64,000 bases of DNA from Eledone cirrhosa (GCA_964016885.1 OZ024756.1:21452001-21516000); one strand, 5' to 3'. Numbered from the stretch's first letter, positions 4,707-60,588 are shown. A program made the numbers and translations. Notes: generated by a model from the letters alone, not told the origin.

Positions 4707-4770
4707 ATTTTATCTGATGAGGGCGTACTGAAAAAAACAGCACAGTACCTCCGAAATATATATAATAAAA
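4707..4770 (+). ncRNA. Type-I hammerhead ribozyme (family E)
   Basis: ttttat-CTGATGA(4714)-gggcgtactg...cagtacctcc-GAAA(4753)-tatata-TA-ataaaa; stems I and II pair, helix III is palindromic. Confidence 0.8.
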
Positions 4771-5094
4771 CATTTATGTTGATTATGTGAACGTATTCAT
4801 TTATTAATATTTTGATAATATATATATATATATATATAAATGTATTATGTTATATATATATTTTAGATGAGTGTATTATCTTATATATATATATATATAT
4901 GTGTGTGTATGTATTATGTTTATATATATATACACAGTTCAAGAGTAACCAATCTTAAAGAGAGAGATAGGAGAGGGGAGATTGGTGAATCAGTTAGAAG
5001 CCAAAGCGTAAAGGCATGTGCTCAATGTGCAATATGCAGTGGAAGGCAGCTAGGTGGCTGGGTTCATGCAGAGGTTAGGTGCACAGAGCTGGAA

Positions 5095-5655
5095 ATATTC
5101 ATTAATTAAGCAAAACAAGACCACAAAATTCACAAGCAAGACACTATTAAAACATATTTTAGTTTGATGTAAGGAATGTAGAGAATAATAATAATAATGT
5201 CCGTTTACAATTGTTTCGCTACTCCATATAATGATTATATATCATTATTGATACTGGCCTAGTGCCTAAAGTAGAAACAATTATTGATCTGGTTCAGTTG
5301 GAAATAATTAACATAGGTAAAGATAGAGCAGATCATTACATTTATGTAACATTACATTTATGTAACATTCTTTCCTTATTTGAATTTATATTCCTTTTGA
5401 AGTTCCGATGAGCTGCTCTATCTTTACCTATGTTAATTATTTCCAACTGAACCAGATCAATAATGATATATAATCATTTGATCCAGAAATAGTATATGGA
5501 GTAGCGAAAAATTGTAAACGGACATTATTATTATTATTATTATTATTATTATTATTATTATTCTCTACATTCCTTACATCAAACTAAAATATGTTGACAA
5601 TCTTTTAATAATGTCTTTGTGAATTTTGTGGTCTCGTTTTGCTTAACTAATGAAT
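5095..5655. mobile_element. ~560-bp imperfect fold-back element ending in a (TA)n tract, carrying a variant hammerhead
   Basis: agtttgatgtaaggaatgtagagaat vs attctctacattccttacatcaaact; tgatctggttcagttggaaataattaacatagg vs its reverse complement at ~5425-5459. Confidence 0.85.
5402..5519 (+). ncRNA. Hammerhead-like motif with variant core CCGAUGA
   Basis: gtt-CCGATGA-gctgctctat...atggagtagc-GAAA-aattg-TA-aac; 10-bp stem II; the inverted arm retains the palindrome caattg. Confidence 0.55.
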
Positions 5656-5848
5656 ATATATATATATATATATATATATATATATATATATATATATATA
5701 TATATATATATATATATATATATATATATATATATATATATATATATATATATATATATATATATATATATATATATATATATATATATATATATATATA
5801 TATATATATATATATATATATATATATATATATATATATATATATATA
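5654..5848. repeat. Pure (TA)n microsatellite, ~195 bp
   Basis: Uninterrupted TA run. Confidence 0.97.
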
Positions 5849-6349
5849 GAGAGAGAGAGTGTGTGTATTATGTTTATATATATATATCAGTGTGTGTTTG
5901 TATATCTCTATACTCTCTTCTGCATATATATGCATAAACATAACACGCACATGTATATATATGATAACACACACACGCATACACATATATGTAAGTGTAT
6001 ATATGTGTGTGTATATATATATATATATATATATATATATATATATAAAATAGTGAAAGACAGAAAAATCAAGGGAGGGATATATATATATATATATATA
6101 TATACTTTGTGCGTAGAGAAAGATTTCTAGATGTATGTGGCAGTTAGCTTGATAAAATATAAAAATCGAACATTTTCATAACGGACTGAAAGGGAGAATT
6201 GACATAGCAGTTAACTTTTTCTGACGTAGCTTCAATTATGGAAGAACGTAACATAGGCAGACGTCAGAGCTAGGAAGGAATTCGTGGCAAATCCCTGAAA
6301 TTTCATTAGTGATCACCAACTGTCATTCAATGTCAACAGGCTTGTTCTT

Positions 6350-7516
6350 CTGGCCCCTTTCTTTTCTCGCTTTCTTTCCTCCCTTTTTCTCGCTTTCTTT
6401 CTTTCTTTCTCTATCTCTCTCCCGCTTTCTTTCTTTCTCTATCTCTCTCCCGCTTTCTTTCTTTCTCTATCTCTCTCTCGCTTTCTTTCTTTCTTTCTTT
6501 CTTTCTCTCTCGCTTTCTTTCTTTCTCTATCTCTCTCTCGTTTTCTTTCTTTCTTTCTTTCTCTGTCTCTCTCTCGCTTTCTTTCTTTCTCTGTCTCTCT
6601 CTCGCTTTCTTTCTTTCTCTATCTCTCTCTCGCTCTCTTTCCTTCTCTATCTCTCTCTCGCTCTCTTTCCTTCTCTATCTCTCTCGCTCTCTTTCTTTCT
6701 CTCTCGCTTTCTTTCTCTCTCGCTTTCGCTCTCTCTCTCGCTCTCTCTCTCTCTCTCTCTCTCGCTCTCTTTCTCTCGCTCCTCGCTCTTTCTCTCGCTC
6801 TTTCTTTCTCTCGCTCCTCGCTCTTTCTTTCTCTCGCTCTCTTTCTCTCGCTCGCTCTTTCTCTCGCTCGCTCTTTCTCTCGCTCGCTCTTTCTCTTTCT
6901 CTCGCTCTCTCTTTCTCTCGTTCTCTCGCTCTCTATCTCTCGCTCTCTATCTCTCGCTCTCTCGCTCTCTATCTCTCGCTCTCTCGCTCTTTATCTCTCG
7001 CTCTTTATCTCTCGCTCTTTATCTCTCGCTCTCTATCTCGCTCTCTCGCTCTTTATCTCTCGCTTTCTCGCGCTCTCTCGCGCTCTTTCTTTCGCTCTCT
7101 TTCTTTCGCGCTCTTTTTTTTCGCTCTCTCTCTCTCTCACTCTCTCTTTCACACTCGCGCTCTCTTTCTCGTGCTCTCTATCTATATATCTCTTCTTCTC
7201 ACTTTCTCGCCTCTTTCTACTCCCCTTTCTACTCCCCTTTCTACTCCCCTCTCTCTCCCTTTCTACTCCCCTCTCTCCCACGCTCCCTTTCTACCCACTC
7301 TCCCTACTCCCTCTACCCCCTCCCTACTCCCTCTACTCCTCTCCCTATTTCTACCCCCTCTCCATCTTTCCCCCCCTCTACCCCTTCTCTCTCTTGCTTT
7401 CTTTCTTTTTTATCTCTCGTTCTCTCTCTCTCTCTCTCTCTCTCTCTACACACACACACACAAACAAACAAACAAACAAACAAACAAACAAACAAACAAA
7501 CAAACAAACAAACAAA
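6350..7516. repeat. Polypyrimidine (CT/CTCG) low-complexity array followed by (CA)n and (CAAA)n
   Basis: Direct inspection; the 445-aa S/L/F ORF is its translation. Confidence 0.95.
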
Positions 7517-7828
7517 CAGGTTTTATAAAAGCGTATTCCGAATTTTCAATATTTCCGCCATTAGTAATGCCTCGTTTACTGAACACTGGCCGAGGTATGT
7601 TAAACCTCTTTTACAGATTCCATTATCTATGTTCTTGGGAAGATAGGGTATATAAAACATTGTATATACACATACTGAACATTGGCCGAGGCATGTTAAA
7701 ACTTCTTACATATATCATTAGTTATGTTATAGTGAAGATAGAGCAAACTAAATAGATTATATATGTGTATATATATGTATGTATATATATATATATAATG
7801 TATATATATATATATATAATGTATATAA

Positions 7829-7978
7829 GAGGGTGTGCTAAGATACCAGGTGGGCCATAACACACCAGAGTACTCTATATTTAGGGTAGAAGAGTGGATA
7901 GTAGGAAAAGAGTCAGGACCCCGACAGCCGAGCTCCGGCCGTTTCGACAGCTAGATCCGGTCCTGACTCTTTTCCTAT
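7829..7978 (-). mobile_element. TA-flanked short element, family C (3' half of a hammerhead-like motif), with a short fold-back
   Basis: taggaaaagagtcaggacc...ggtcctgactcttttccta; homologous to 8970-9110, 13037-13250, 28228-28420 and 29786-29990. Confidence 0.75.
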
Positions 7979-58666: not shown

Positions 58667-58870
58667 CGTGTGGCTGAGTGGTTAGAGAATTGGATTCACA
58701 ATCTTGAGGTTGTGAGTTCGATTCCTCGACCGGGCGATGCGTTATGTCCTTGAGCACTTTATTTCACGTTACCCCTTCTACCTGGAGTTGCGACCGATAG
58801 ATAGTAGTAGCAACTGGAAAGACCAACGGAAACATTGTTTCCTCGGCCCGATTTGAGCAAAGTCGATCGA
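58667..58870 (+). mobile_element. tRNA-derived SINE family 2
   Basis: A box tggctgagtgg, B box gagttcgattcc, then tgtccttgagc. Confidence 0.87.
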
Positions 58871-58977
58871 TATATATATATATATATATATAATAGAAAA
58901 AAAATGGGGACGTTTCGTTTAAATATGAAAAATATTTATCACAAACCACAATAAAAAAAAATATCTTTTGTCGCATC

Positions 58978-59069
58978 ACCGGTCTGAGGAGCAGCTCGAT
59001 ACTGCAGTCGGGTCCATAACTCCTATGGGTTACCTTGAGCCAAAATTCTGCGAAACGCGCGTAACAGGT
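58978..59069 (+). ncRNA. Type-I hammerhead (CUGAGGA) with a large stem II insert, TA-flanked
   Basis: accggt-CTGAGGA(58984)-gcag...ctgc-GAAA(59052)-cgcgcg-TA-acaggt. Confidence 0.78.
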
Positions 59070-59274
59070 CGATAAATATATATATATATATACACATATA
59101 CACCCACACATATATTTTTATATTTACACACACACACACACACACACACACACACACACACACACACACACACACACACACACACACACACACACACACA
59201 CACAGACACACACACACACACACATATACACACACACACATATACACATATACACATATACACATATACACACA

Positions 59275-59672
59275 TATATATATATATATATATATATATA
59301 TTGATACATATATATATATATATATATATATATATTGATACATATATATATATATATATATATATATTGATACATATATATATATATATATATATATATA
59401 TTGATATATATATATATATATTGATATATATATATATATATATATATATTGATATATATATATATATATATATATATATTGATATATATATATATATATA
59501 TATATATATATTGATATATATATATATATATATATATATATATTGATATATATATATATATATATATATATATATTGATATATATATATATATATATATA
59601 TATATATTGATATATATATATATATATATATTGATATATATATATATATATATATAATATATATTGATATAT
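59275..59672. repeat. (TA)n array periodically punctuated by TTGA
   Basis: About 14 ttgata motifs separated by variable TA runs. Confidence 0.92.
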
Positions 59673-60543
59673 ACGCGAAACAAAGAAGAGGAATACGAAA
59701 GTTTATCTAATGACAGAAACCGTGTAGAAAATAAAATACCACAATTTATCTTAAAATAAAAATTGACGTCTCAAACAAAAATATATTCTCTTTGGTTGCA
59801 GCCTCCGCAGCACAGGTGTCGGCGGCACCGGAATAAAATGTGGCGTTGTTAGGAAGACCAAGCAATATGAAAAGTAGAACCTAAAAGAGCAGGCAGAACA
59901 ACGATAACATTGACATACAATAGAATTAAATATATTTATGTACACACAGAGAGACAGACAGAGAGACAGAGAGACACAGACAGACACGTGTTTATATAAT
60001 CCCATGGTTAATAGCTGTGAGTAACAAACAACACATGCACATAAATACGAACTACAACACAAAAACACTTAAATGAAAATCACATACCGAACTCTATCTA
60101 GTGCTTTACATTACACCTTACATAAAAAAATACCTACATTATCACCACACGCCTCTCTAAGAAATTGCACACTATTTTAAATATTTATAATAATTATAAC
60201 ATGCTTAAACACCCCACACAAAATATGTTTATTTCAACTGCATTATAACTCTTTCCTCATACATGCCTTATTGACTGTATTGACTCCTGTATTGTACACC
60301 AATTGTCCTTGCTTATAACTTCTTTCCCTGTGATTTTTTTCTTGTGCTTTTTACTTTTACTTATACCTAATACACTTACCTATTACACTTCCAACCAGTG
60401 CTGCCTGTAATTGTGTTATTTCAAGCGGAACATCTTTTTAACTCCCGAATCTCCACATGATGCTTTTGACACTAATAACAACTATGTACCCTAAATGTTC
60501 TAAATGACTAGGATTTTAGTTATACGTTTTCGACATTCCTTAT

Positions 60544-60588
60544 GCTCCGATGATTCCAGACATCCCTCCGGAAGAAACAATTGTCAGT
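60544..60588 (+). ncRNA. Hammerhead-like motif with variant core CCGAUGA
   Basis: gct-CCGATGA(60547)-ttcc...ggaa-GAAA(60574)-caattg-TC-agt; GUC triplet; ~40 nt upstream of a TA tract. Confidence 0.55.

What the first reader, a model, noticed from the sequence alone, without database searches (positions are those of the whole stretch)
4707..60588. About 20 hammerhead ribozyme cores from roughly nine families, mostly in short TA-embedded inserts
Seen: CUGANGA-stem II-GAAA-palindrome-UH at 4714, 8720(-), 8863, 10908(-), 11046, 11739(-), 11759, 12303, 14781(-), 15592, 22946(-), 25763(-), 28553, 48961, 49140(-), 57300 and 58984, plus variants at 5405, 57288(-) and 60547. Most have a closing stem I; a few are degenerate. 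Helix III is a different palindrome in different families (TGCGCA, TATATA, TACGTA, CGCGCG, CAATTG, ACGT), so structure is conserved while sequence is not. Established: Penelope-like elements (PLEs) carry minimal type-I hammerheads with palindromic helix III thought to act as dimers. Inference: these are non-coding, PLE-dependent ribozyme retroelements (solo pLTRs or retrozyme-like), at about one core per 3 kb.
Basis: partly seen in the sequence, partly recalled or inferred. Interest (0 to 1): 0.9.

Follow-up and report, generated by a model that had tools for sequence, protein, structure and literature searches.

The report
Penelope retrotransposon stubs carrying hammerhead ribozymes
The self-cutting-RNA motifs are real and most are the short end pieces of a known kind of jumping gene (Penelope-like, mostly Hydra clade), of which this genome holds over 110,000; the stubs were likely made when the element's enzyme copied only the capped front of its own RNA from two fixed start points, one into each side of a cut TA repeat.

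Summary
Observation confirmed: 17 of 17 canonical cores fit a hammerhead descriptor (shuffles 0.6-1.0); 60547 is a family variant, 57288 a dead copy, 5405 no hammerhead; a U3-A8 core at 25557 was missed. Seventeen of the 19 real cores belong to families that run into a Penelope-like RT/GIY-YIG ORF elsewhere in G000, mostly Hydra clade by motifs. They are mainly stubs of autonomous elements, not separate non-coding families: short and long family-A copies intermix on a tree. Two-arm stubs carry one arm from each of two fixed 3' ends (87 of 87 classifiable), 27 of 58 are not nested, and 5' ends pile at one site with an extra G, or 30 nt below a TATA box: likely twin priming on a capped RNA. No copy starts at a ribozyme cut; cleavage is untested. 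Exact genome counts give 112,748 motifs in three classes; sampling suggests about 300,000 (200,000-570,000), above the axolotl's 126,247. The class is known (Cervera 2014; Craig 2021; Frangieh 2024), and this scan had already noted Hydra stubs, a similar count and twin priming in other windows of this genome.

The parts
8536..8960 (.). Family A two-arm stub in (TA)n: minus arm from the tail end, plus arm to the first 3' end; cores 8720(-), 8863(+); predicted cuts after 8672(-) and 8917(+)
   Evidence: 91-94% identical to the pLTRs of full-length copy L372
10809..11236 (.). Family A two-arm stub: minus arm ends at first 3' end, plus arm carries the 83-nt tail; cores 10908(-), 11046(+)
28432..28655 (+). 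Family A stub: 55-nt inverted tail piece joined to a full arm from the fixed 5' site; core 28553; arms not nested
   Evidence: identical over 154 columns to a long copy, L381
11597..11826 (.). Family B two-arm stub; cores 11739(-, helix III mismatch) and 11759(+); hairpin helix III
   Evidence: family runs into an ORF start in L379
57228..57430 (.). Family B two-arm stub; 57288(-) has CAAA for GAAA, 57300(+) lost its stem I 5' strand at the junction
4646..4829 (+). Stub of an A/C-type Hydra family, core 4714
   Evidence: 74% over 142 nt to L298, whose endonuclease end lies 1.6 kb upstream
12063..12402 (+). C-type stub, core 12303, split by a ~185-nt repeat (12107-12290) with an 18-nt duplication
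   Evidence: 94% to L294, continuous with an RT/endonuclease ORF
49022..49160 (-). C-type stub, core 49140, tail-to-tail with the F stub in one (TA)n
   Evidence: 81% to L294
48848..49023 (+). Family F 3' end, core 48961
   Evidence: endonuclease end 150-350 nt upstream in L180, L192, L196 and others
25649..25866 (-). Family E stub with long helix II, core 25763, plus inverted tail piece
   Evidence: relative L340/L373 runs into an ORF start
58887..59085 (+). Family E2 stub, core 58984; no ORF link found
22849..23048 (-). Family D 3' end with minimal hammerhead, core 22946; a non-Hydra PLE
   Evidence: GIY-YIG with a CX2-5CxxC linker continuous with the hammerhead in L348/L374
14755..14817 (-). 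Decayed family D fragment, core 14781
15367..15726 (.). Family H two-arm stub, core 15592(+), stem I imperfect; no ORF link found
60440..60625 (+). Family I-like 3' end, CCGAUGA core at 60547; 5' boundary approximate
   Evidence: 78% over 74 nt to both pLTRs of full-length L377
25429..25603 (-).
31218..32043 (-). RT fragment of a further PLE family (R), broken; its own hammerhead family is not in the window

Best explanation
The cores are type I hammerhead motifs in the terminal repeats (pLTRs) of Penelope-like retrotransposons, mostly Hydra clade, and the short inserts are likely dead stubs copied from the capped 5' end of the autonomous element's own RNA. Shown: a full element reads pLTR(hammerhead)-tail-5' UTR-RT/GIY-YIG ORF-3' UTR-pLTR, with a period of 3.8-4.2 kb; copies end in (TA)n at one of two fixed sites 60-105 nt apart; two-arm copies use one site per arm. 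Inferred: the endonuclease cuts both strands in (TA)n, and each DNA end primes reverse transcription inside the RNA, one at each site. When the enzyme starts in the downstream pLTR it makes long 5'-truncated copies; when it starts in the upstream pLTR it runs off the cap after 70-260 nt, often copying the cap as an extra G, and the two cDNAs join head to head by microhomology. The templates were uncut by the ribozyme. The palindromic helix III predicts cleavage only when two pLTRs of one full transcript (or two RNAs) pair; in two-arm stubs a read-through RNA would bury the ribozyme in a long hairpin, so most genomic cores are likely silent passengers.
For: ORF links. Full pLTR-ORF-pLTR copies L372, L375, L377. 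Hydra motifs RW, DKT, CxCX5C, CxxC and CxH, no CCHH (against PMC8557442 section 11). Two 3' ends: family A +107 (93 arms) and +190/192 (82 with +192) of 207 hits; B +66 and +127; F +69 and +147. Two-arm inserts: A 58 of 63 and B 29 of 38 have one arm at each end, none has the same end twice, the other 14 have an unclassifiable end. 27 of 58 A and 6 of 29 B inserts are not nested. Arms of one insert differ by 2.0% against 6.6% between inserts, 38 pairs. Fixed 5' end: 16 of 19 distinct inserts fetched by the core alone break within about 4 nt of one site; genome-wide 4,188 of 10,962 matches have a non-template base there, 2,077 of them G; by my reading 19 of 30 G junctions are not explained by the partner arm, 5 are ambiguous, 6 are templated. 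TATA boxes start 30 nt (B) and 29 nt (J) above the modal 5' end. Short and long A arms intermix: 31 label changes against 33.6 in shuffles, 5 identical sets hold both. In vitro a PLE nicks and extends both strands, starts at two internal sites that bound the tail, and uses uncut RNA (PMC11167929).
Against: No RNA data: start sites, caps and cleavage are inferred. Family A has no TATA box above its 5' site, and T precedes the site almost as often as G (about 78 of the 100 listed A/T matches), much of it from AT microhomology. F, D and R show no sharp 5' site, so run-off stubs are not general. The partner arm is the nearest arm in only 19 of 38 pairs. Long:short ratios differ among A haplotypes (2:21 against 13:5), though the loci were fetched with biased queries. 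Frangieh et al. saw no strand difference in start site in vitro, whereas these copies show a strict one-each rule. Families of 15592, 58984 and 25557 have no ORF link among 2, 6 and 16 cores held. Clade assignment rests on motifs, not on a tree with named references; Pfam names none of these ORFs above cut-off.
Confidence: 0.72

Rival explanations
1. The short inserts are non-autonomous families (solo-pLTR SINEs or retrozyme monomers) that are transcribed from an internal promoter and re-copied by the PLE enzyme; the first reader's view.
For: D. virilis Penelope has an internal promoter (PMC2377424 passages); family A lacks an upstream TATA; some haplotypes are mostly short; three families are unlinked; true tandem arrays of another family exist in G000; retrozymes derive from pLTRs in frogs (bioRxiv 10.64898/2026.07.22.740005).
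Against: Short and long A arms do not cluster; B and J stubs lack the TATA box that lies 30 nt upstream in long copies; about half of the arms lack the tail needed for the second start; no tandem unit in the window.
Confidence: 0.13
2. The mirror arms arise by self-priming or fold-back: one cDNA (or an antisense RNA) turns on itself and copies its own 5' part, as proposed by Arkhipova et al. 2013.
For: Near-perfect palindromes at many junctions; 28 of 58 A inserts have both arms reaching the same 5' end and could be nested; arms of an insert are alike; PMC3846280 discussion.
Against: In 27 of 58 A inserts each arm holds sequence the other lacks, so neither can be the copy of the other; the window's 28432-28655 is such a case.
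Confidence: 0.07
3. Solo pLTRs are left by recombination or deletion from longer insertions, and the fixed 5' end is a pause or recombination hot spot, not a transcription start.
For: Solo pLTRs in Adineta were read this way (PMC3846280); the A site sits in an AT palindrome that favours microhomology.
Against: Extra G at the exact site, TATA spacing in two unrelated families, and both arms stopping at the same base are not expected from deletion.
Confidence: 0.07
4. The motifs are chance matches in AT-rich, repeat-rich DNA.
For: Descriptor tuned on these sites; Rfam finds none; folding z-scores of nine cores are unremarkable, -2.0 to +0.6.
Against: 17 against under 1 in shuffles; 107,997 against 186; covariation; with helix III left free, 23 of 33 cores in unselected loci are self-complementary and 7 more are the 2-bp helix of family R.
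Confidence: 0.01

Closest known systems
Hydra clade of C-terminal-endonuclease Penelope-like elements (Craig et al. 2021, PMC8557442; section 11, passages and supplement part 2 of 59 read)
   Same: RW and DKT motifs, CxCX5C linker, no CCHH, CxxC and CxH around the endonuclease E and N, (TA)n target, hammerhead near the 3' end, often with U before GAAA as in families B and F.
   Different: The paper lists 6 new and 21 Repbase families, one from a cephalopod (Hydra-1_Obim, no pLTR found), generally under 3 kb; here many families 30-60% identical in protein, 3.8-4.2 kb, with over 100,000 hammerheads; helix III is mostly an even palindrome; tails are 60-105 nt, not 30-40.
[quoted passage not shown]
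   Same: Type I, palindromic helix III, mostly single motifs from truncated PLEs, pairs on opposite strands 100-700 bp apart, U3-A8 core variant, many families per genome.
   Different: Counts there are 2,000-9,000 per genome; several families here lack the G10.1-C11.1 pair and have long or bulged helix II; a CCGANGA core is fixed in family I.
Poseidon element PAc of Anolis, in vitro mechanism (Frangieh et al. 2024, PMC11167929; parts 1-2 of 4 read)
   Same: Two internal start sites that bound the tail, AT-rich target, both strands extended, ribozyme cleavage not needed.
   Different: No strand asymmetry in vitro; nothing on cap run-off stubs; different clade.
Metazoan non-LTR retrozymes (Cervera and de la Pena 2020, PMC7229834, passages; Li et al. 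2026 bioRxiv 10.64898/2026.07.22.740005, parts 1-3 of 5)
   Same: Short, non-coding, type I hammerhead, pLTR-related; axolotl holds 126,247 motifs.
   Different: Defined by head-to-tail tandem units and circular RNA; the window's inserts are single or head-to-head and continue into ORFs elsewhere.
L1 twin priming and cap-derived 5' G (Hancks and Kazazian 2016 review, PMC4859970, passages)
   Same: Two primers on one RNA give an inversion; an untemplated G marks a copied cap.
   Different: In L1 the two cDNAs cover different parts of the RNA; here both start near the same place and overlap, giving an inverted duplication.

Membership tests
Type I hammerhead ribozyme | CUGANGA and GAAA...UH core joined by helices I-III | tested here: met
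   17 of 17 canonical sites, 11 with stem I >=4 pairs; 5405 and 57288 fail
Type I hammerhead ribozyme | Covariation in the helices | tested here: met
   16 of 19 pairs, 18 rows of the A/C class only
Type I hammerhead ribozyme | Match to an Rfam hammerhead model | tested here: not met
   no family at gathering score; none among the best 150 of 601 E-value hits shown
Type I hammerhead ribozyme | Self-cleavage at H17 | not testable with these tools
   no bench assay; no RNA run listed; none of 58 A or 29 B tail arms starts at the predicted cut
EN+ Penelope-like element | Single ORF with RT and C-terminal GIY-YIG between pLTRs that hold the hammerhead | tested here: met
   L372, L375, L377; ORF named by motifs and by homologues with a weak GIY-YIG hit
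EN+ Penelope-like element | Inverted 5'-truncated copy and one-sided tail | tested here: met
Hydra clade | RWK-type motif, DKT, CxCX5C linker, no CCHH, CxxC/CxH | tested here: met
   family A, with I, E and F fragments in part; family D and R have a CX2-5CxxC linker instead
Hydra clade | Insertion in (TA)n | tested here: met
   family D ends mostly in (CA)n
Hydra clade | RT tree grouping with named Hydra elements | not tested
   no named reference sequence was available from a tool
Non-LTR retrozyme | Head-to-tail tandem units each with a hammerhead | tested here: not met
   none in the window; met by another family in L102/L376 and L390
Non-LTR retrozyme | No autonomous, protein-coding form; own lineage | tested here: not met
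   families of 17 of 19 cores linked to ORFs; tree of family A; open for 15592, 58984, 25557
Non-LTR retrozyme | Abundant circular RNA monomers | not testable with these tools
   no RNA holder listed

The most novel reading that the evidence does not exclude
Hydra-clade PLEs insert by obligate two-site twin priming, one fixed RNA start per DNA strand, and when they start in the 5' pLTR of their capped mRNA they leave strong-stop stubs that record cap and promoter position; this explains the long-unexplained head-to-head pLTRs and one-sided tails of PLEs, and has given this genome about 300,000 hammerhead motifs, more than any count found in the papers read, plus tens of thousands of long hairpins.
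Probability: 0.55. Interest if true: 0.65.

Novelty: new member of a known kind. Interest (0 to 1): 0.45.

Why it matters
How PLEs make head-to-head repeats and one-sided tails is named as open in Arkhipova 2013 and Craig 2021. Thousands of young natural copies give a strict rule (one arm per start site, non-nested arms, cap-like 5' ends) that an existing in vitro assay can test. The load also matters: at least 112,748 counted motifs in 3.0 Gb, against 126,247 in the far larger axolotl genome, and a 2026 octopus repeat annotation (PMC13282606, passages) never mentions ribozymes, so such stubs may sit among unclassified SINEs or MITEs (not tested). It does not point to a new ribozyme or a host function.

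Tried and rejected
Rfam at E-value and gathering thresholds: only microsatellite-driven miRNA hits and a weak U6-like hit. Pfam on PLE ORFs: nothing above cut-off; the protein search gave 19 unnamed homologues at 32-40% identity. Single-strand folding does not single out the cores. DNA search with the 12303 unit returned only 7 hits because common words are skipped. I first took family A for Neptune; the CxCX5C and DKT motifs moved it to Hydra. The window's RT fragment is not the partner of any listed core: its family has another hammerhead with a 2-bp helix III. Ribozyme-cut templates: no arm starts at the cut. L378 was dropped as a link for family B because it is a chimera of an I-type ORF with a B-type end; apparent links in L052, L058, L072, L087, L127 and L299 are neighbouring insertions. 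3'-end tallies for families whose reference ran into (TA)n are unusable. Literature searches: hammerhead + Penelope-like (37 papers, 30 listed), hammerhead ribozyme + octopus (5), Penelope + octopus + Neptune (2), Penelope-like + pseudo-LTR + solo (5), octopus + genome + Penelope + transposable elements (20), Penelope + twin priming (3, listings not about PLEs), hammerhead + cephalopod (129, 15 listed, mostly sharks), untemplated G (9): no listing reports this count or this rule; subscription papers and most supplements were not seen.
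Full report
Observation. All 20 positions were read. A descriptor for type I hammerheads hits exactly the 17 canonical sites among 29 CTGANGA, 11 with a closing stem I; shuffles give 0.6-1.0 and about 0.1. 60547 is a CCGAUGA variant typical of its family, 57288 has lost GAAA, 5405 is not a hammerhead, and a U3-A8 core at 25557(-) was missed. 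So 19 of 20 are hammerhead-family sequences and there is one more. Helices covary across 18 representatives of the A/C class. Rfam does not detect them.

Genome. The window is G000:C17:21452001-21516000 of a 3.0-Gb animal assembly. That it is an octopus-like cephalopod is a guess from its make-up and from earlier scan notes; I did not test it. Exact whole-genome counts for three non-overlapping patterns are 107,997 (control 186), 1,088 (control 1) and 3,663 (control 0), together 112,748. The first pattern occurs 27 times there, which predicts 128,000 against the true 108,000, so the sample is roughly fair. Scaling gives about 320,000 (bootstrap 200,000-570,000), not counting families the descriptor misses. 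The window is about 1.3 times the sample average by the strict count and 3.5 times the genome average by the first pattern; its two flanking 10-kb stretches hold none.

What the families are. Family A (five cores) is the pLTR of an autonomous element: in most of 25 loci fetched by its 3' UTR an RT/GIY-YIG frame ends about 1 kb above the hammerhead, in L092 the tail runs on into the ORF start, and L372 and L375 are whole pLTR-ORF-pLTR copies with periods of 3,940 and 3,770 nt (both have a break in the frame). The protein has the motifs that Craig et al. use to define the Hydra clade. Other links: B to an ORF start in L379; 12303 and 49140 types to L292-L295; 4714 type to L298; F to L180, L192, L196 and others; 25763 type to L340; 60547 to whole copy L377; D to a non-Hydra endonuclease in L348. 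Identity between the window copy and the linked copy ranges from 74% to 98%, so some links are to sister subfamilies. The families of 15592, 58984 and 25557 show the same two-arm and tail layout but no ORF among the 2, 6 and 16 cores held.

Anatomy of the stubs. 3' ends fall at two sites, 83 nt apart in A, 61 in B, about 78 in F. Of 63 short two-arm A inserts 58 have one arm at each site, and of 38 B inserts 29; none has the same site twice; 14 have a decayed end. In 27 of 58 A inserts the tail arm stops short of the 5' end that the other arm reaches, so neither arm contains the other. Arms of one insert are closer to each other (2.0%) than to other inserts (6.6%), though the partner is the nearest arm in only 19 of 38. 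The 5' ends pile at one base 69 nt above the A core: 16 of 19 distinct inserts fetched by the core alone, 18 of the first 30 exact matches on C1, and genome-wide at least 4,188 of 10,962 matches carry a base other than the template C just before it, G in 2,077. By my reading of 30 G junctions, 19 are not explained by the partner arm, 5 are ambiguous and 6 are templated; an untemplated G is the accepted sign of a copied cap in L1 and SVA (PMC4859970). In B 77 of 90 arms and in J 20 of 29 start in a narrow zone whose modal base lies 30 and 29 nt below a TATA box of the long copies. F, D and R have no such zone. No arm begins at a predicted ribozyme cut. On a tree of 150 A arms (107 short, 43 long; 4 of 154 left out by name collision; rough support) short and long do not cluster. 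Just past the first 3' end, nine of ten families printed show a (C)CTC...GAG(T) hairpin (J unclear; seen by eye, not tested for covariation).

Mechanism. The ORF protein likely cuts (TA)n on both strands and primes two cDNAs inside the RNA, one at each fixed site, as the Anolis enzyme's two start sites and two-strand extension allow (PMC11167929). Starting in the 3' pLTR gives long truncated copies; starting in the 5' pLTR gives run-off stubs. Shown: layout, links, counts, end rule. Inferred: priming order, cap, promoter. Untested: cleavage. Palindromic helices III cannot fold alone but pair well as dimers (-3 to -13 kcal/mol for the 8-mers), which needs two pLTRs in one sense; the close pairs in the window are on opposite strands and would form a long hairpin instead.

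Known and new. Hammerheads in pLTRs, dispersed single motifs, opposite-strand pairs and the U3-A8 variant are in PMC4209133; inverted copies, one-sided tails, Hydra and one octopus family in PMC8557442; two start sites in PMC11167929. Not found in the searches listed: the count, the strict one-arm-per-site rule with non-nested arms, and the cap-like 5' ends. This scan had already noted Hydra stubs, about 200,000 motifs, twin priming and the tail hairpin in other windows of this genome; I had reached these before reading the notes, and they are not independent support. Verdict: real, a known kind of element at an unusual scale, with a testable mechanistic rule; interest 0.45.

Noticed in passing
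L376 (G000:C11 about 14,995,600-15,003,400) and L390 (G000:C28:110,000,001-110,010,000): Head-to-tail arrays of 420-490-nt units, each with a hammerhead (17 units with a strand switch in L376; at least 16 in L390); retrozyme-like, family absent from the window, no ORF link found.
   Followed up: partly
L292:4637-5764: Three direct copies of another hammerhead family 556-571 nt apart.
   Followed up: no
L378:2500-5800: Chimeric element: family I pLTR and ORF ending in about 420 nt of family B 3' end; template switch between families or a later insertion.
   Followed up: partly
window 12107-12290: A ~185-nt repeat inserted into a C-type stub with an 18-nt duplication that includes the start of the hammerhead core.
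   Followed up: partly
window 9117-9268(-), 12919-13018(-), 57465-57516(+), 11472, 15305, 24131, 36769: Further PLE end fragments or lone CUGANGA without a full core.
   Followed up: partly
window 31218-32043(-); L051-L056: RT fragment of an abundant young PLE family (20,239 first-look candidates) with frames up to 1,241 aa, an asparagine-rich insert and a hammerhead with a 2-bp non-palindromic helix III.
   Followed up: partly
tails of families A, B, C, E, E2, F, H, I: Shared small hairpin (CTC...GAG, often followed by TGCT) just past the first 3' end; candidate binding or start signal.
   Followed up: partly
window 5280-5336 and 5408-5464: 57-nt inverted repeat, 98% identical, unrelated to the hammerhead families.
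   Followed up: partly
window 4147-4641(+): Fragment of a non-LTR retrotransposon ORF (DUF6451 weak hit).
   Followed up: no
window 40856-40958(+): Degenerate U6-like sequence, 39.8 bits, below Rfam gathering score.
   Followed up: no
window 17780-18545, 32030-34640, 49900-53300: 24-nt tandem array and two multi-kilobase TA/TG-rich microsatellite fields.
   Followed up: no
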